64,000 nucleotides of DNA from Candidatus Marinacidobacterales bacterium (GCA_965224085.1 CBDCYI010000005.1:1760001-1824000), one strand, 5' to 3'; positions 1,347 to 17,250 are shown, numbered from the stretch's first letter. Numbers and translations are program-made. The notes: generated by a model from the sequence alone, not told the origin.

Positions 1347-1511
1347 TGGAAGTACACGAAACGGCCAGGTCTTAGCTCCATCCAGCCGGCTACACTGTCC
1401 GAGTACGTCTTGAGCAAGTTCATTTTTTCCGTCGAGAGTCTCGAGCCCCTCGTTCTTCTGACGACGCTCGTCCTTATGGGGGTGGCCAAGGGCGGTGCGG
1501 GGTGGAAAAAG

Positions 1512-2844
1512 ATGTTCGGGCTCGGCAAGAAAGAAAAGAGCCCGGCTTCTGGTGCGGACCCTGCGCTCGCCGCGGGCGATTGGGAGCGGGCCGCCAAGAT
1601 ATTCGAAAAAGACGGACGTTATCGTGATGCGGCCAAGCTTTATCGAGGCAAGGGGCAGAACCACGAAGCAGCGCGTCTTCTCGTGCGCGCTGGAGCGCTT
1701 ACGGAAGCAGCGTCCATCTTCGAGCGGGTCGGACATTATCAAAAGGCTGCGGAGGTGTGCGCGCAGTCCGGGGACAACAAAAGAGCGGGCGAGAACTACC
1801 GGCACTACCTCGAAGACCGGTTCGGCACCCTCGCCCTCGCGCGCTCTCCGGCGGACCATGCGGAGTTCACGAAATATTGCCGGCTTGCCGGGCAAGCCTT
1901 CGAGCGCGCCGGACTTCTCGATCAAGCTGCGGAAGTGCTCGAGCGTGGCGAGCAGTGGGAGGATGCGGCTGCGCTGTTCCTCAAGCTCAATCGTCACGTG
2001 AAAGCCGCCGATCTCTATGAGCGTGCCGGAGCGGTGGACCACGCTGCCGACGCCTACGCGCAAGCGGGCGACCGTGTGCGCGCCGCGCAAATGCGAGGCG
2101 AGCATCTTTACAAGCAAGATCAGAAAAACGAGGCGGCGGTGCAGTTTCTCCTCGGTGGCGATCCGCTTCGAGCTGCCGAAGTCTACGAAGAAGCGGGAAA
2201 TTATCTCGACTCCGCACGCTGCTACGAGCATTGCGGCGCCCACCGTCAGGCCGCCGAGGCCTATGAGCGCGTGGAGCAATTCGGCCGCGCGGCGGAAATG
2301 TACGGACGGAGCCAGGACTATAAGAAAGCCGCGGCGCTCTACGAGAAGGCCGAAGACTGGGGCCAGGCGGCGCGGATGTTCGCCGAGTCAGGCGACTATT
2401 ATCGCGCCGCGAAGAACGCGCGCAAAGAGGGACTCACCGAGTTCGCCATCGACTGCCTCCAGAAGATCGAGACAACGAACCCCAATTATCAAGAATCCCT
2501 CGTCGAGCTCGGGCAGAGTTTCATGGAGCGGGATCTGCCGGGTGTCGCCGTGGAGAAGTTGAAGAAGGCGCTTCACGATCAGCCACTCGCGGCCAAGAAT
2601 CTCGACATCTATTACACGCTCGCGGTCGCTTCCGAGCAGATGGGTAGCTACGAAAAAGCTGTGGAGATCCTCAAGCAGATCGTCGCGGAAAACTACAGCT
2701 ATCGGGACGCCGTCGGGCGGCTCCAGGAGCTCCAGAAGAAGCCGGCGAAAGGGGCCACCGAGCCGTCACGCCATCAAGCCGCCAAAGAAGAGCTCGGTGG
2801 CAAGCGCTATGAGTTCATTGAGAAACTCGGCGCCGGCGGGATGG
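1512..2844 (+). pseudogene. N-terminal part of a TPR/helical-repeat Ser/Thr protein kinase, interrupted by IS110
   Basis: Many AAxxYExAG helical repeats, then RYEFIEKLGAGGM (kinase subdomain I), broken at 2844. Likely ATG at 1512. Confidence 0.9.
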
Positions 2845-2859
2845 ACTCCCCACGCCGGA

Positions 2860-4155
2860 TCAAGAGAAAACCTTCTTCGTAGGAATCATCGTCGATTCGC
2901 TTTTTGTTGTGGACGACCGCGAGGGGTCGTAAAGAGTTCTTTGTCGAAGCATCGCCATGGCGATGGGTAGAATGCGGTCCATGACGCCTCTGAGAGCTCT
3001 GGCATGGCTGTGGCCCGCGTCGCGAAGCCGATCGTAGTGCTTTTTAAAGTGTGGGTCGCGAAGCACGGCAGTGCTGGCCCAATGATGGAGAGCGTTATTG
3101 AGGGGCAAAGAGCGAGCTCTCCTCATCAGGATAGTTGGTCGCAACTGACCGCGCTTGCCGCTTTTTTTCGTGACGGGTGCGATGCCGCTGAGAGTCCTGA
3201 AGGCTTTGAGATTTCGTAGCCGAATGGGGTCGTGGGCATAGCAGAGCACGGAGGCGAGCACGTAAGCACCGACGCCGGGCAAAGAGGCAAGAATGGCAGC
3301 GTCGGAGCACTGCTTGTCGTTTAGTGCTTGCAAGCGCTTGAACCACTTCTCGAGATGCTGGTCGGAGGCACGACGATGTTGTCGAACGAGGAGCAACTGC
3401 TGAAGGAGCAGTTCGAGATGCTCAGAAGTAGCTTTGGTGGTTGCATGCGCGACTCGGAGTGGTTTTTGATTGAGGGTATCGAGGATCTGCTCGGGTTTTA
3501 CGCGTCGGATGCGGTGTTTTTTAACGAGCGTCTCGATGGTGTGGCGGCTAAGAGAGTTGGGGCTGGATTCGAAGAAGAGTTTTAGGAGCTCGCAGAAAAA
3601 CGCGTCGAGAGCCTTATTCTTTGGCGCGAGCGAGACGAGGTGAGGCCAACAGCGAGTAAGGAGTTCTCGGATCTGCGAGCTGAGGGCAACGTGGTTTTTG
3701 ACAAGTTGGTCGCGGGTGCTCAACAGCCCGCGCATAGCAAGGATCTCCGGAGGTGGAAGTTGCAAGCGCTGAAAGCGGTGACCGTCGGTTCTGAGCGAAT
3801 CGGCGAGAACGAAGGCGTCGCGCCGATCATCCTTGGCGCCGCTCATAGAATGCCGGTCGCGGAAACGGTCGACCTGCTTGGGATTGATGGAGAAAATGGC
3901 GATGGCGTTGTCAAGAAAGAGCTCGACGACGGCTCCATGAGGCTTTTCGATCGCCACTGCGATGCGCTCGGTGTCTTGCGTGGTCAGTTCCAGAAGCCAG
4001 CCGATCGTTTCTGAAAGTCCTTCGCGGCTATGAGGAAAGCCGCGCTCCCCCATAAATTGTCCCCTGGTATCGACCACGCTGGCCAAGTGAAGCCATTGGC
4101 CCAGGTCGACACCGACGAAGAAGTCGTAGTCGAGCTGATTCCTGGAAGAACTCAT
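2860..4155 (-). CDS. IS110-family DEDD recombinase (transposase)
   Basis: VGVDLG, VAIEK and KDDRRDA (DEDD residues), SLPGVG, GIAPVTKKSGK (catalytic Ser region). ATG at 4155. Confidence 0.95.
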   Translation of the reverse strand: MSSSRNQLDYDFFVGVDLGQWLHLASVVDTRGQFMGERGFPHSREGLSETIGWLLELTTQDTERIAVAIEKPHGAVVELFLDNAIAIFSINPKQVDRFRDRHSMSGAKDDRRDAFVLADSLRTDGHRFQRLQLPPPEILAMRGLLSTRDQLVKNHVALSSQIRELLTRCWPHLVSLAPKNKALDAFFCELLKLFFESSPNSLSRHTIETLVKKHRIRRVKPEQILDTLNQKPLRVAHATTKATSEHLELLLQQLLLVRQHRRASDQHLEKWFKRLQALNDKQCSDAAILASLPGVGAYVLASVLCYAHDPIRLRNLKAFRTLSGIAPVTKKSGKRGQLRPTILMRRARSLPLNNALHHWASTAVLRDPHFKKHYDRLRDAGHSHARALRGVMDRILPIAMAMLRQRTLYDPSRSSTTKSESTMIPTKKVFS

Positions 4156-4158
4156 TGC

Positions 4159-4313
4159 CGTCAGCGCATGTGATGTTTCATCGGCCCCTGTACCGGCGCT
4201 CGAAGCGCAACTCCCCATTGGATGTCCATCACAAGAAAATTGCCGGCACGCGTGTCCATACCGGGCGCTCGGAGCGCAGGGCGAAGTATGGCGTTGCCGG
4301 CAAGCTGCTGACG
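4159..4313 (-). ncRNA. Predicted bridge RNA (target-binding loop plus donor-binding loop)
   Basis: Closing stem 4159-4165/4307-4313. Target arm stem 4240-4248/4295-4303 with guides 4279-4287 and 4256-4262. Donor arm stem 4169-4175/4227-4233 with guides 4210-4217 (identical to end 2845-2852) and 4187-4193 (reverse complement of 5440-5446). Confidence 0.88.
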
Positions 4314-4350
4314 AAATCGAAAATAGTTCAAGCTCATCGTGAGATTTGCT

Positions 4351-4767
4351 CTACCACTGCAATCGAAGCTGGCGCGCGATGCCACCAGCTCGTGCTGGTT
4401 TTTTTCTCGGTTGTTTCGGGCGAAGCACGTCTGCGAGTTTTTCTCGAAGGTAGCGAACATAAGGCGGGTCTAGATATTCACTTCGCACTTCCTCGAGCAC
4501 AGGTGAAAAATAGCGAAGGGAGCGAATGGGTTGTAGTGGCTCCTCATGCTCTTGTAGCTCCCGACGAGCGCAACCCAGAAGTAGGGCGCACTCGAATTCG
4601 TATAACGGGACGCCCTGGCGGTAGAGTCGCGTCGCCATGAAGCGATCGTCGCGCCGTGGTCGCTCAGGTGTGTTCGGAATAGAAACATAGATATCCAAAA
4701 CCGCCCGGACATAATCGTTTTCTGTTAGAGCGTCGCTCGTGAGCGGTTTATCACTGAGCTTCGACAT
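4351..4767 (-). CDS. IS110 accessory helical protein (about 138 aa), function unknown
   Basis: GGAGG RBS before ATG 4767; overlaps the upstream ORF stop. Motifs YVRAVLDIY, QGVPL and PIRSLRYF. Confidence 0.75.
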   Translation of the reverse strand: MSKLSDKPLTSDALTENDYVRAVLDIYVSIPNTPERPRRDDRFMATRLYRQGVPLYEFECALLLGCARRELQEHEEPLQPIRSLRYFSPVLEEVRSEYLDPPYVRYLREKLADVLRPKQPRKKPARAGGIARQLRLQW

Positions 4768-5156
4768 CCATCCACCTCCCGCGTCCGCCGCAGATACAGC
4801 ATTTGGCATATCCGAAACTGTCAAGCTTCGTTTTCATTGAAAGAACCATCGAGCTCCGTGACCGGATCTGTTCTCTGATTCCTACATTGCCCGAGTTACC
4901 GACGTGAATGGAACCATGATCCGTTACTTTTTCTTGGTGTCGTCGATACTCACGTTGCCGGTCCGCACAATCTCGACTGTCCTTCGACACTTTCTCGATC
5001 TTTGCGGTTGTAGCCGCGACACTTTATTAGGCCGGCATGATAAGAGCACGCTTTACCGCAGTAGCAGTGTCCACGGTCACAGCTCTTGCAGATGTAGAAG
5101 GCCTCTGAACAGTTACGACAAAAACGCTGGTACACAACGACTGGTTTGGTGGCCAT
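4751..5156 (-). CDS. IS110 accessory Cys-rich Zn-finger protein, with a 1-nt frameshift near 4978
   Basis: CRNC..CKSCDRGHCYCGKAC in one frame, continuing as DRQREYRRHQEKVTDHGS...CCICG in the next frame. Confidence 0.72.
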
Positions 5157-5444
5157 TTGAGACTCAGCAAGCGCTGGACTATGGCCGCCCGTCTGTGAGA
5201 GGCTAGCTTCCACCTGTACTGGAGCGCCTCCTTCGGGGGGCCATCCAAACATCAGAGCCCCGGTCGTTTCTGGCGGCCGGGGCTCGCTATTGTTGCACAG
5301 CAGGCTCACCCTTATCTCGCCGGGGCGAGACGATCTGACTGCCTCGCGCCTACGGCGCGAGATGATGCCTTGTGCATACACATTTTGGTTCGACCTTCCG
5401 CGTAGCTCACGCTTTCGCTGTTCTGACGCTTCCGCAAGCGTACA

Positions 5445-6183
5445 GGGCGTCGTCTATCGCGCCAAAGACACGCGGCTCAATCGCATCGTGGCCTACAAGA
5501 TGCTCATGGAGCAGTTCATGGAGGTCAAAGAGGTCCGGGAGCGCTTCTTGCGCGAAGCACAATCGGCAGCGCAGCTCAATCATCCGAATATCGTCACGGT
5601 GTTCGACGTGGACGTCGACTCGGAGCAGAACCGGCTCTTCATCGCTATGGAGTTCGTCGCGGGTGAAAGCTATTTCGACATCCTTCAGCGTGAGACGAGA
5701 CTCTCGATCCAGCAGACCGTTCAGTTCATCGGAGGCGTTCTCAAAGCGCTCGCCCACGCGCATCGCCACGGCGTCCTCCACCGCGATATCAAGCCTTCGA
5801 ACGTGATGCTCTCGAAACAGCGCGTCGTCAAGATCATGGATTTCGGCCTCGCCAAGATACTTCGAGACGCGAAAGCGCAGGGCAGTGAGAAGGCGAGCGG
5901 GACGCCGCTCTACATGTCTCCAGAGCAGATTCTCGGCAAGGCACTCGACTTCCGCACGGATATCTACGCCTTTGGAGGGACCGTGTATCACCTCCTCGCG
6001 GGCGAGCCACCTTTCGTTGATGGCGAAGTGCTCTACCATCACGTGCACACACCCGCGCGCTCGCTGAAAGACTTGCGGCCGGACGTTCCGAAGGTGCTCT
6101 GCAGCATCGTTATGGCTTGTCTCAACAAGGAGCCCGCCGACCGGCCGACCTCCGACCAAATCCTGAAAATGTTGAAGAAGTAG
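5445..6183 (+). pseudogene. C-terminal part (catalytic domain) of the interrupted Ser/Thr kinase
   Basis: GVVYRAKD, VAYK, HRDIKPSN, DFGLAK, GTPLYMSPEQ. Confidence 0.93.
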
Positions 6184-16623: not shown

Positions 16624-17250
16624 TCAGACGCCGATGACTTGGGCCGTGACGCTGCGCTCACGTGGCCCGTCGAGCTCCGCGAAGAGGATGCTCTGCCATT
16701 GACCGAGATGAATTTTTCCTTCTTGGATCGGGAGCGTGACGTTGTTCCCGAGTACGAGCGCCCTTATGTGGGCTTCCGCGTTCTTGCGCTCACAATCCGA
16801 GCAATCCTCGCAATTGTGGAGGTAGCCATGGTCGCGGTTCGCGATCCGCTCGAGGAAATGCTTGACGTCGGCCATGAGCGCGGCCTGGAACTCGTTGATG
16901 AAGACGGCTGTCGTCGTGTGGAGCGTCGAGATGATGAGGAAGCCCGCTTTGACGCCTGAAGACTTCACGAGGTCTTTGATGCGGTCGGTGACGTTGAAGA
17001 GTTCAACTGGGGAGTTGGTGGCGACCTTCAGCGTGCGAGATAGCATTTTCAGCGAGCCGTTGAGCTCCTGTACGGAGTCGTCCGTCGACCGGAACGCGTC
17101 AACCTCGAGGGCGTAGCTCACGCTGCCTGAACCATTGGCTCCGTTCGATCCGTTGGAACGATTGGATGTTGGGGCGGATGTCGGGGCGTTCATAGTGTGC
17201 TCATCGCTGATGTCGGTGCCCGGCCCGTTTTCGACGTAAAATTCATTCAT
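16624..17250 (-). CDS. yjbQ: YjbQ/UPF0047 family protein with N-terminal extension
   Basis: HTTTAVFINE, NAEAH, LGQWQSILFAELDGPR. Confidence 0.88.
   Translation of the reverse strand: MNEFYVENGPGTDISDEHTMNAPTSAPTSNRSNGSNGANGSGSVSYALEVDAFRSTDDSVQELNGSLKMLSRTLKVATNSPVELFNVTDRIKDLVKSSGVKAGFLIISTLHTTTAVFINEFQAALMADVKHFLERIANRDHGYLHNCEDCSDCERKNAEAHIRALVLGNNVTLPIQEGKIHLGQWQSILFAELDGPRERSVTAQVIGV

What the first reader, a model, noticed from the sequence alone, without database searches (positions are those of the whole stretch)
4159..4313. Complete bridge RNA readable by eye, located inside the element rather than at its end
Seen: donor-loop guide ACTCCCCA (4210-4217) is identical to the terminus 2845-2852. 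CCTGTAC (4187-4193) is the reverse complement of the other terminus plus core (5440-5446). Together they specify the circle junction GGGGAGT-CC-TGTAC. Both arms are closed by 7-9 bp stems, and an outer stem (4159-4165/4307-4313) ends 3 nt before the recombinase ATG. The RNA lies about 1.1 kb from the left end, behind two ORFs, whereas the model IS621 RNA lies in the non-coding left end. Inference: it is processed from a polycistronic transcript or has its own promoter, and its fold may control recombinase translation.
Basis: partly seen in the sequence, partly recalled or inferred. Interest (0 to 1): 0.85.

Follow-up and report, generated by a model that had tools for sequence, protein, structure and literature searches.

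The report
Internal bridge RNA in kinase-targeting IS110
A real bridge (guide) RNA sits 1.1 kb inside a 2.6-kb IS110-type jumping gene, because this lineage picked up two extra genes of unknown function, and its guides aim the element at a conserved coding motif of protein kinase genes.

Summary
Window 2845-5444 (minus strand) is a 2600-bp IS110-family element flanked by a duplicated CC core. It splits a Ser/Thr kinase gene in its glycine-loop codons.

The 155-nt RNA (4313->4159) lies directly 5' of the DEDD recombinase. It has a target loop and a donor loop. In 27 distinct homologues the stems are kept and almost only the guide positions vary. The right donor guide changes together with the left end (29 of 29 rows).

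The variable target-guide positions are the third-codon positions of the kinase motif G-M-G-E/D-V.

A covariance model of the RNA finds it in 24 of 24 distant, compact IS110 relatives (1.6-1.8 kb). There it lies 33-203 nt from the left end. Here it lies 1125 nt from the end, behind a conserved structured leader and two unannotated ORFs.

That leader-ORF1-ORF2 cassette also occurs in IS21-type and IS256-like elements.

A promoter-like motif spanning the RE-LE circle junction is conserved. This suggests the RNA is made from a long junction transcript, but no transcript data could test it. Verdict: a new variant of a known kind.

The parts
2845..5444 (-). Whole IS110-family element, 2600 bp. Gene order on the minus strand: LE, leader, ORF1, ORF2, bridge RNA, recombinase, RE.
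   Evidence: Ends shared by the copies in the own genome. Empty-site joint 2842->5445 in run X1.
5445..5446 (-). Core dinucleotide CC (GG on the plus strand), copy at the LE side.
   Evidence: CC flanks both ends in all copies. 2-nt ambiguity of the empty-site joint.
2843..2844 (-). Core dinucleotide CC, copy at the RE side.
5440..5444 (-). LE terminus TGTAC (right donor half), paired by the right donor guide.
   Evidence: RDG and LE agree in 29 of 29 rows, including 4 rows with GTATAGG / TATAC.
5437..5442 (-). -10-like hexamer TACGCT of the putative circle-junction promoter.
   Evidence: TAC[G/T]CT lies 17-18 nt from the RE hexamer in 21 of 21 rows with both ends. Function is inferred.
5157..5436 (-). 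Non-coding structured leader. It includes the conserved hairpin at 5255-5285.
   Evidence: Conserved with compensatory changes and non-triplet indels in 19 IS110-type rows. The same hairpin and leader precede ORF1 in IS21-type and IS256-like elements.
4751..5156 (-). ORF1: Cys-rich zinc-ribbon protein with a helical hairpin and a C-terminal CxxCGRRG motif. It is broken in this copy by a 1-nt insertion near 4977.
   Evidence: No Pfam, NCBIfam or PHROGs family at curated cut-offs.
4351..4767 (-). ORF2: 138-aa helical protein of a large unannotated family.
4159..4313 (-). Bridge RNA, from outer stem to outer stem.
   Evidence: Alignment A2, pair counts and covariance model.
4279..4287 (-). Left target guide ACUUCGC-CC (core included).
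   Evidence: Same sense as the left target plus core at the insertion sites.
4256..4262 (-). Right target guide GGUAUGG (core included).
   Evidence: Complementary to CC-ATACC, which is the flank of own-genome copies G and H. The window's own flank is CC-ATCCC.
4210..4218 (-). Left donor guide AUGGGGAGU.
   Evidence: 8 of 9 identical to the RE end GTGGGGAGT; 9 of 9 in the B-type copies.
4187..4193 (-). Right donor guide GUACAGG (core included).
   Evidence: Reverse complement of CC-TGTAC.
2860..4155 (-). IS110 DEDD recombinase, 431 aa.
   Evidence: PF01548 at 6e-30 and PF02371 at 2.7e-11. NF033542 at 162.8 bits against a cut-off of 140 for the B-type copy.
2858..2863 (-). -35-like hexamer TTGATC in the RE. 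It overlaps the recombinase TGA stop codon.
   Evidence: TTGA[C/T][A/C] in 29 of 29 right ends, 13-14 nt from the end.
2845..2853 (-). RE terminus GTGGGGAGT (left donor half).
1410..2844 (+). 5' part of the interrupted host gene: TPR repeats and the start of the kinase domain up to G-A-G-G-M.
5445..6183 (+). 3' part of the interrupted Ser/Thr kinase gene.
   Evidence: Pkinase at 4.8e-53, starting at profile position 13.

Best explanation
The 155-nt structure is the bridge RNA of a 2.6-kb IS110-family element.

Its 5' module is the target-binding loop. The left guide AC-N-UC-N-CC-C has the same sense as the left target plus core. The right guide GG-N-AUGG is complementary to the core plus right target.

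Its 3' module is the donor-binding loop. (A/G)UGGGGAGU has the same sense as the right end. GUACAGG is complementary to CC plus the left end. Together the guides specify recombination of the circle junction GGGGAGT-CC-TGTAC with the antisense strand of the kinase glycine-loop codons (G-M-G-E/D-V).

The RNA has kept its ancestral place directly 5' of the recombinase gene. It is 'internal' because this lineage acquired about 1.08 kb between the first ~15 nt of the left end and the RNA. That insert holds a structured leader and two ORFs.

Inferred, not shown:
- In the excised circle a promoter is rebuilt across the junction (-35 in RE, -10 in LE). It would transcribe leader, ORF1, ORF2, bridge RNA and recombinase as one RNA.
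- The bridge RNA is then released by processing, or works as part of that RNA.
- Its outer stem lies over the recombinase translation start and may damp translation.
For: Family. The recombinase matches PF01548 and PF02371 and the NCBIfam model 'IS110 family RNA-guided transposase' above its cut-off.

Ends.
- 12 full or partial copies in the own genome share the termini, each flanked by CC.
- An empty-site joint skipping 2602 nt exists in run X1.

Structure.
- In 27 distinct homologues (A2) 93.9% of cells pair in my two-module structure. Only 24-41% pair when the partners are slid.
- 6 of 40 pairs show changes on both sides. 0 of 500 shuffles reach the observed covariation score.

Donor guides.
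- RDG and LE agree in 29 of 29 rows: GTACAGG with TGTAC in 25, GTATAGG with TATAC in 4.
- The LDG 9-mer equals the RE 9-mer in 22 of 29 rows. It differs at one position in 6 rows and at two positions in 1 row.
- The GGGAAGT variant of the LDG is mirrored in the RE in 2 of 3 rows.

Target guides.
- Invariant RTG positions match the flank at 155 of 156 cells. Invariant LTG positions match at 169 of 182.
- The variable RTG base matches in 13 of 26 sites, or 16 with G-U (permutation p about 0.009).
- LTG position 3 matches in 13 of 26 sites, or 21 with G-U (p 0.014 and 0.003).
- Within the genome, the A-type guide GGUAUGG goes with CCATACC flanks in 2 of 3 copies. The B-type guide GGAAUGG goes with CCATTCC in 3 of 5 copies whose right flank was read (B, D, E).

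Same RNA in compact relatives.
- Model R1 hits 24 of 24 IS110 loci whose recombinases are 34-44% identical. It hits 0 of 16 IS21, IS256 or other loci at E < 0.1.
- In those 24 loci no ORF2 lies within 1.5 kb.
- In 23 of the 24 a CCTGTAC lies 33-45 nt (14 loci) or 149-203 nt (9 loci) before the RNA. Estimated element lengths are 1.61-1.83 kb.

Internal position. The distance from LE to the target loop is 1015-1190 nt in all 29 rows with a visible LE.

Junction promoter.
- TTGA[C/T][A/C] is present in 29 of 29 right ends.
- It lies 17-18 nt from TAC[G/T]CT across the junction in 21 of 21 rows with both ends.

The guide rules and the junction-promoter paradigm come from Durrant et al. 2024 (PMC11208160, passages read).
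Against: - Rfam 15 has no match in 2700-5600 at E <= 1.
- The single-sequence fold is only z = -1.98.
- The RNA is so conserved that most stem pairs never vary: 20 of 40 pairs are invariant.
- Durrant et al. state that the core is included in all four guide pairings. Here the left donor guide does not pair with the core: UG or UU stands where CC would be expected.
- At the variable guide positions 10-13 of 26 insertion sites are mismatched. Only 1 of 26 left targets is a perfect 9/9 match, and 10 of 26 are fully paired with G-U allowed.
- L091 has a right end that disagrees with its LDG at two positions. L107 and L110 disagree at one position.
- Copies of one subfamily share a guide, and metagenome contigs of a multi-copy element can be chimeric. 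L076 and L077 share one insertion site but carry different guides. The permutation p-values therefore overstate independence.
- No transcript start, end or processing site was observed. The RNA-library runs held only contigs of relatives.
- The sigma-70 consensus scan found no promoter on the minus strand of the linear element.
- ORF1 is frameshifted in this copy, so the extra genes may not be needed in cis.
Confidence: 0.85

Rival explanations
1. Same bridge RNA, but made from its own promoter in the ORF2 3' end or the 38-nt ORF2-RNA spacer. It would then be a primary transcript starting near 4313, independent of the junction transcript.
For: In the window copy a TAnnnT hexamer (TATTTT, 4325-4320) ends 7 nt before the outer stem (read). 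The integrated element needs some promoter to make recombinase and RNA for excision, and the junction promoter exists only in the circle. Own-genome copy H begins 38 nt before the RNA and is 99.9% identical over RNA and recombinase.
Against: The consensus scan found no promoter-like site on the minus strand. The TATTTT hexamer has no recognisable -35. The spacer upstream of the outer stem is not conserved among lineages and shrinks to about 25 nt in L086-L091.
Confidence: 0.3
2. The leader-ORF1-ORF2 segment is a separate mobile element nested by chance in the left end of an ordinary IS110. It is not part of the IS110 unit.
For: The same cassette occurs with IS21-type and IS256-like transposases. 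Compact relatives lack it.
Against: The cassette encodes no recognisable transposase of its own. It lies at the same place in 29 of 29 typed metagenome loci with an IS110 recombinase and in all full own-genome copies. ORF2 and recombinase identities fall together, from 89%/93% down to 42%/65%. The guides match the outer ends at 5444 and 2845, not ends near the RNA. The empty site lacks the whole 2.6 kb.
Confidence: 0.05
3. The structure is only a 5' leader that regulates recombinase translation. The word matches to the ends are chance.
For: The start codon is 3 nt after the outer stem. The 7- and 8-mers recur elsewhere in the window.
Against: Guide positions vary while the stems are fixed. The RDG changes together with the LE. 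The target guides match the insertion sites. The architecture follows the published LTG/RTG/LDG/RDG strand rules.
Confidence: 0.03

Closest known systems
IS621 and the IS110-subgroup bridge RNA (Durrant et al. 2024, PMC11208160; passages read)
   Same: DEDD recombinase with the RNA directly 5' of it. Two loop modules in the order target then donor. The left guides have the sense of the top strand and the right guides are complementary to it. A 2-nt core is duplicated at both ends. A promoter-like motif is split between RE and LE.
   Different: The RNA is 1125 nt from the left terminus instead of inside a short non-coding end. The element is 2.6 kb with three ORFs. The core is CC. The left donor guide does not cover the core. 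The target is a coding motif of a gene family, not a REP-type repeat. Rfam has no model that matches.
Compact Acidobacteriota IS110 relatives found here (L049-L075, 8 genomes)
   Same: The same RNA family (24 of 24 hits). The same donor ends, TGTAC... and ...GTGGG(G/A)AGT.
   Different: Length 1.61-1.83 kb with no ORF1 or ORF2. The RNA lies 33-203 nt from the LE. In 5 of 9 same-genome copy groups the flanks are short palindromes rather than kinase codons (my reading of the junctions).
Expanded, cargo-bearing IS110 loci (Hu, Xie, Yang, Rubin, bioRxiv 10.64898/2026.08.14.744561; abstract, sections 5 and 8 and term passages read)
   Same: An IS110 element larger than 2 kb carrying extra genes within guide-matched boundaries. 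The whole unit is mobile.
   Different: In the sections read, that paper describes variable, largely plasmid-derived cargo and DNA acquired downstream of the transposase module. Here the extra DNA is one conserved cassette upstream of the RNA, kept through recombinase divergence down to about 64% identity. The terms 'kinase' and 'hypothetical' do not occur in its main text. Its supplements could not be seen.
IS21-family elements (IstA/IstB)
   Same: A lineage of them carries the same leader-ORF1 and ORF2 (9 metagenome loci plus L036 with the full order). In 2 of 8 loci tested, inverted repeats of 11 nt or more lie outside ORF1 and ORF2.
   Different: A DDE transposase plus AAA+ helper, and no bridge RNA (0 hits). 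ORF1 and ORF2 flank the transposase genes instead of both preceding them.

Membership tests
IS110 family (IS110 subgroup) RNA-guided insertion sequence | DEDD (RuvC-like) N-terminal domain plus the Tnp C-terminal domain | tested here: met
   PF01548 at 6e-30 and PF02371 at 2.7e-11. NF033542 at 162.8 bits against a cut-off of 140.
IS110 family (IS110 subgroup) RNA-guided insertion sequence | Short core sequence present at both junctions | tested here: met
   CC flanks both ends in all full copies. The empty-site joint has a 2-nt ambiguity. Terminal inverted repeats were not searched for with a tool.
IS110 family (IS110 subgroup) RNA-guided insertion sequence | Non-coding RNA with two internal-loop modules 5' of the recombinase | tested here: met
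   Structure counted on 27 sequences: 93.9% of cells paired, 6 covarying pairs.
IS110 family (IS110 subgroup) RNA-guided insertion sequence | Donor-loop guides match the element ends and change with them | tested here: met
   RDG and LE agree in 29 of 29 rows, including one variant class. LDG and RE are identical in 22 of 29 rows. The variant LDG is mirrored in 2 of 3 rows.
IS110 family (IS110 subgroup) RNA-guided insertion sequence | Target-loop guides match the insertion sites | tested here: met
   Invariant positions match at 155 of 156 (RTG) and 169 of 182 (LTG) cells. Variable positions match above permutation.
IS110 family (IS110 subgroup) RNA-guided insertion sequence | Core dinucleotide included in all four guide pairings (Durrant et al.) | tested here: not met
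   LTG, RTG and RDG include the core. The LDG is followed by UG, UU or CU, not CC.
IS110 family (IS110 subgroup) RNA-guided insertion sequence | RNA encoded in the non-coding left end next to the terminus; compact single-ORF element | tested here: not met
   The RNA starts 1131 nt from the LE, behind a leader and two ORFs, and the element is 2600 bp. Relatives with the same RNA meet this feature.
IS110 family (IS110 subgroup) RNA-guided insertion sequence | Promoter rebuilt across the RE-LE junction of the circle | tested here: inconclusive
   A conserved -35-like and -10-like pair with a 17-18-nt spacer is present. Neither promoter activity nor a circle was observed.
IS110 family (IS110 subgroup) RNA-guided insertion sequence | Recombinase binds the RNA and the RNA directs recombination | not testable with these tools
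   Needs biochemistry or a genetic assay.
Any Rfam family | Match to a curated covariance model | tested here: not met
   0 matches at E <= 1 in window 2700-5600.
Cargo-bearing expanded IS110 (2026 preprint) | Extra genes inside boundaries recognised by the resident guides, with no other transposase | tested here: met
   ORF1 and ORF2 lie inside the guide-matched ends. No other transposase family was found in them.
Cargo-bearing expanded IS110 (2026 preprint) | Variable cargo acquired stepwise, mainly downstream of the transposase module | tested here: not met
   One conserved cassette sits upstream of the RNA in 29 of 29 typed loci.

The most novel reading that the evidence does not exclude
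The leader-ORF1-ORF2 cassette is a portable accessory module that unrelated transposase families (IS110, IS21, IS256-like) have each recruited. In the IS110 lineage it sits in the junction-promoter transcript ahead of the guide RNA. The bridge RNA would then be matured from the 3' part of a protein-coding polycistronic RNA, and ORF1/ORF2 (a zinc-ribbon protein plus a helical protein, fused in some genomes) would regulate or assist circle-stage recombination.
Probability: 0.3. Interest if true: 0.8.

Novelty: new variant of a known kind. Interest (0 to 1): 0.6.

Why it matters
Three points go beyond a routine IS110 annotation.

1. A bridge RNA can work from a place more than 1 kb downstream of the junction, embedded after two translated ORFs. 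This bears on how these RNAs are made. It also bears on annotation pipelines that look for them only in non-coding ends.

2. The target is a conserved protein-coding motif of a paralogous gene family, the kinase glycine loop, not an intergenic repeat.
   - The naturally variable guide positions are exactly the third-codon positions of that motif.
   - U and G at those positions would tolerate synonymous codons by wobble pairing. This pairing is an inference.
   - Read from the flanks, at least 7 of the own-genome copies lie in kinase glycine-loop codons. Thirteen strict target-like sites remain empty, 10 of them in G-x-G-G-M-G-E-V kinases.

3. The two extra genes belong to a large family with no annotation: 1403 representatives at E <= 0.001. 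The family travels with at least three transposase families, so it is a candidate general accessory function of insertion sequences.

Tried and rejected
- Rfam scan of 2700-5600: no match.
- ORF1 and ORF2 against Pfam, NCBIfam and PHROGs: nothing at curated cut-offs.
- 30 of 30 distant ORF2 representatives had no Pfam family above cut-off. The best was RepB_primase_C at E 8e-4 and 19.7 bits, against a cut-off of 26.1.
- ORF2 model (pLDDT 78.6, five helices):
  - Foldseek against the PDB gave no match at E <= 0.001.
  - VIA wide gave a best Z of 7.0 to AAA+ lid domains and 5.4-5.5 to DnaD-like domains. This is within the range the tool calls common for helical models. No fold assignment is made.
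- ORF1 model (pLDDT 69.3): no PDB match.
- ESM Atlas: only clusters named 'hypothetical protein'.
- ORF1-ORF2 complex job: no verdict, score 0.00. It is not used either way.
- Sequencing runs:
  - The three runs labelled as metatranscriptomic hold only Logan contigs of relatives at 88-95% identity.
  - They show no starts, ends or strand, so nothing can be said about transcription.
  - Parts without cover are not interpreted.
- A second bridge RNA in the 288-nt left-end leader was considered, because CCTGTAC also occurs at 5213-5219. It was rejected. That word is not conserved (CCACTACAAG or CCAGCACAAGG in relatives). It stays GTACAGG or ATACAGG in the rows whose LE is TATAC.
- The 452-aa ORF starting at the ATG inside the left donor guide (4218) was considered as the true recombinase start. 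It was rejected because five relatives carry an extra T that closes that frame.
- The words at 17008 and 17067 are unrelated sequence.
- Literature searches found no description of an IS110 that targets kinase genes or of this accessory cassette:
  - 'bridge RNA' + IS110 + passenger
  - IS110 + 'bridge RNA' + 'protein kinase'
  - IS110 / 'accessory gene' / IS21 / 'zinc ribbon'
  - 'bridge RNA' / IS110 / 'insertion sites' / 'coding regions' / 'gene family'
  - Only listings were seen for the hits not named elsewhere, and supplements are closed.

Full report
**What is at the locus**

The plus strand of the window carries a gene for a TPR-repeat protein that continues into a Ser/Thr kinase domain. 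It is cut between ...K-L-G-A-G-G-M and G-V-V-Y-R-A-K-D.
- The 3' half matches Pkinase at 4.8e-53, starting at profile position 13. The 5' half holds TPR repeats.
- The intervening 2600 bp (2845-5444) read on the minus strand as: LE TGTACGCTTGC..., a 288-nt non-coding leader, ORF1, ORF2, a 155-nt structured region, a 431-aa recombinase, and RE ...GGCGTGGGGAGT. CC lies on both sides.
- The recombinase carries the DEDD_Tnp_IS110 and Transposase_20 domains. Its B-type paralogue passes the NCBIfam model 'IS110 family RNA-guided transposase'.

**Checking the observation**

The two words are not rare enough to prove anything alone: 4 and 5 occurrences in the window against 0.85 and 1.64 expected. One such pair, at 17008/17067, lies in unrelated sequence.

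The ends they match are real.
- The genome (6.87 Mb, 12 contigs) holds 12 full or partial copies, of two main sequence types. A-type copies are 99.8-100% identical to the window copy. B-type copies are about 80-87% identical (five of them full length). Two further copies, F and L, are about 90% identical.
- All copies that keep an end carry the same termini and the CC flanks.
- Contigs of one public run join 2842 to 5445, skipping 2602 nt with a 2-nt ambiguity. This is the uninterrupted kinase allele.

**Anatomy of the RNA**

Read 5' to 3' on the minus strand:
- outer stem (4313-4307 with 4165-4159)
- module 1: a 9-10-bp stem, an internal loop and a GCGCU...AGCGC hairpin
- a U-rich linker
- module 2: stems GUGAUG/CAUCAC and CAUC/GAUG, an internal loop and a near-identical hairpin

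In module 2 the 5' side of the loop is (A/G)UGGGGAGU, the sense of the RE end. The 3' side is GUACAGG, the complement of CC+TGTAC.

In module 1 the 5' side is ACUUCGCCC, the sense of the left target plus core. The 3' side is GGUAUGG, the complement of core plus right target.

These are the strand rules published for IS621. There the left guides pair with the bottom strand and the right guides with the top strand, and the target loop comes first (PMC11208160, passages read). One departure: the left donor guide does not extend over the core.

**Comparative test**

I used ORF2 as a handle. A scan of metagenome contigs returned 66 loci, typed by tblastn as follows:
- 29 have ORF1, ORF2, a 182-252-nt gap and an IS110 recombinase 58-94% identical to the B-type one.
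- 5 end after ORF2.
- 21 are IS21-type.
- 11 could not be typed.

All 29 gaps contain the RNA. After removing 4 identical rows, 27 distinct sequences including two from this genome were aligned (A2).
- The RNA is more conserved than the proteins around it (86% mean column identity).
- Inside the two modules the variable columns are mostly the guide positions.
- On my structure 93.9% of 1079 cells pair, against 24-41% when partners are slid by 1-3 columns.
- 6 of 40 pairs show changes on both sides. 0 of 500 column shuffles reach the covariation score.
- The outer stem is the weakest helix (76% paired).
- RNAalifold on its own proposes a different pairing inside module 2. I prefer the two-module fold because it is symmetrical and fits the guides.

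**Donor guides against ends**
- The right donor guide is GTACAGG where the LE begins TGTAC (25 rows) and GTATAGG where it begins TATAC (4 rows). That is 29 of 29 concordant. L086 and L087 are probably one element, so this is likely one or two events.
- The left donor 9-mer equals the RE 9-mer in 22 of 29 rows. It differs at one position in 6 rows and at two positions in L091.
- Its GGGAAGT variant is mirrored in the RE of L088 and L090 but not of L091.
- The GTAGGGAGT variant (L107, L110) faces an unchanged RE.

**Target guides against insertion sites**

All readable insertion sites are the antisense strand of kinase glycine-loop codons, with consensus AC-N-TC-N-CC|C-AT-N-CC.
- Invariant guide positions match at 155 of 156 (RTG) and 169 of 182 (LTG) cells.
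- The three variable guide positions are the third positions of the codons GGN, GAN and GGN of G-M-G-E/D-V.
- They match the actual site more often than permuted pairings:
  - RTG: 13 of 26, p about 0.009.
  - LTG position 3: 13 of 26, or 21 with G-U, p 0.014 and 0.003.
  - LTG position 6: 13 of 26, p 0.09.
- They are often mismatched all the same. I dropped L077 from the RTG count, and L077, L087 and L101 from the LTG count, as duplicates of the same site or element.
- Copies of a subfamily share a guide, so these p-values are generous.
- Within the genome the two subfamilies differ at the RTG base. The A-type U goes with an A in the flank in 2 of 3 copies. The B-type A goes with a T in 3 of the 5 copies whose right flank was read (B, D, E).

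**Why the RNA is 'internal'**

A covariance model built from A2 finds the RNA just 5' of the recombinase in 24 of 24 IS110 loci. These come from 8 other Acidobacteriota genomes whose recombinases are only 34-44% identical. It finds nothing at E < 0.1 in 16 IS21-type, IS256-like or other loci.
- Those 24 loci have no ORF2 within 1.5 kb. One weak opposite-strand ORF1 hit was seen.
- In 23 of them CCTGTAC lies 33-45 nt (14 loci) or 149-203 nt (9 loci) before the RNA.
- Element lengths come out at 1.61-1.83 kb.
- In the ORF-bearing lineage the LE lies 1015-1190 nt before the target loop in all 29 rows with a visible LE.

So the RNA did not move. About 1.08 kb was placed between the first nucleotides of the LE and the RNA, and the target loop was re-aimed from palindromic repeats to kinase codons.

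**The inserted cassette**

ORF1 is about 137 aa.
- Six N-terminal cysteines are conserved, followed by a basic helical hairpin and a C-terminal CxxCGRRG motif (A3; model pLDDT 69).
- In the window copy it is broken by a 1-nt insertion near 4977.

ORF2 is 138 aa.
- It has the motifs PRRDDR, ALLLGxARR and PIRSLRYFxP (A1). The model shows five helices (pLDDT 78.6).

Neither ORF has a Pfam, NCBIfam or PHROGs family. The ORF2 profile finds 1403 representatives at E <= 0.001 and 650 at 1e-10 in the 50%-identity library. 30 of 30 sampled representatives have no Pfam family above cut-off. Fold searches were inconclusive.

The leader is non-coding: it has indels that are not multiples of three. It holds hairpins with compensatory changes, for example GAGCCCCGG...CCGGGGCUC against GAGCCUCGG...CCGAGGCUC.

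The same hairpin, leader and ORF1 precede IstA-IstB, with ORF2 after IstB.
- This order is seen in 9 metagenome loci and in L036.
- Four named MAG contigs, labelled Gemmatimonadota, Acidobacteria, Pseudomonadota and Acidimicrobiia, show IstA-IstB-ORF2.
- In 2 of 8 loci tested, inverted repeats of 11 nt or more lie outside ORF1 and ORF2.

In G029 the ORF1 and ORF2 parts precede a Mutator-family transposase. In the unpublished genome G027 the two are one 320-aa protein before such a transposase. That last statement rests on G027 alone.

**Expression (inferred)**
- Every right end carries TTGA[C/T][A/C] 13-14 nt from its tip, overlapping the recombinase stop codon (29 of 29 rows).
- In the circle this hexamer would stand 17-18 nt from TAC[G/T]CT in the LE (21 of 21 rows with both ends).
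- This mirrors the junction promoter described for IS110 elements.
- Transcription from it would run through leader, ORF1 and ORF2 before reaching the RNA and the recombinase.
- No sigma-70-like site was found on the minus strand of the linear element. The spacer before the RNA is not conserved.
- I therefore favour a long transcript from which the RNA is cut, or within which it acts. An own promoter is not excluded.
- The recombinase start codon lies 3 nt after the outer stem here. In some relatives it appears to lie inside the 3' part of the RNA (my reading). Occlusion of translation by the fold is therefore geometrically plausible but untested.

**Comparison and verdict**

The element is an IS110-subgroup member by its recombinase, core, RNA architecture and guide logic. 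It fails two descriptive features of the family as published: an RNA next to the terminus in a non-coding end, and a compact single-ORF element. It also fails one pairing detail, the core in the left donor guide.

IS110 loci with cargo were reported in an August 2026 preprint. In the sections read, that cargo is variable and lies mostly downstream of the transposase module. Here it is one conserved upstream cassette that co-diverges with the recombinase.

Four literature searches found no report of an IS110 aimed at kinase genes or of this cassette. Supplements could not be opened.

I rate it a new variant of a known kind, of moderate to good interest.

Noticed in passing
window 4751-5156 (-), near 4977: ORF1 of the window copy carries a 1-nt insertion relative to L078 and L080. 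This splits it into the 143-aa and 79-aa ORFs. The B-type copies in the same genome have an intact ORF1. The A-type is nevertheless present in near-identical copies, and the empty site also exists.
   Followed up: partly
G000 C4:1482120-1483633 (L007): A 1514-bp copy, 99.9% identical, begins 38 nt before the bridge RNA. It keeps the RNA, the recombinase and the RE but has no LE, leader or ORFs. Its left flank reads like a kinase hinge motif on the same strand (my reading), which suggests a rearrangement. The same junction appears as a loose end in run X1.
   Followed up: no
G000 C11:766919-766944 (L017), next to copy G (C11:764579-766918): A 26-nt inverted fragment of the RE abuts a copy that starts at element position 262. 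This may be a head-to-head rearrangement or an assembly artefact.
   Followed up: no
window 5255-5285 (hairpin) and the rest of the leader, 5157-5436: A GC-rich hairpin with compensatory changes is conserved upstream of ORF1 in IS110-type, IS21-type and IS256-like elements. In the IS110 type it is followed by UGAUGUUUGG and is listed as terminator-like on the plus strand. Its role is unknown.
   Followed up: partly
L113, L115-L117, L120, L123, L127, L128, L134, L036; L037, L038; L041: The ORF1/ORF2 cassette travels with IstA/IstB, with a Mutator-family transposase and, as an ORF2-like domain, with a DUF4372 + DDE_Tnp_1 transposase. The ORF2 family has 1403 representatives and no annotation.
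   Followed up: partly
whole genome G000: 13 empty sites fit AC.TC.CCCAT.CC (about 5 expected from base composition). 10 of them lie in G-x-G-G-M-G-E-V kinase loops. Read from the flanks, at least 7 kinase genes carry an insertion, always antisense to the kinase.
   Followed up: partly
window 4243-4264 (-): The 3' half of the target module followed by CAAUUUUCUU scores as an intrinsic-terminator-like site. The linker between the two modules is U-rich in only some relatives.
   Followed up: no
window 4224-4347 (+): The covariance model gives a weak antisense hit (21.3 bits, E 4.8e-4). It probably reflects the palindromic stems.
   Followed up: no
L076 and L077: Two metagenome contigs share the same insertion flanks but differ at the variable LTG and RTG bases. 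This may be assembly mixing of copies or guide turnover in place.
   Followed up: no
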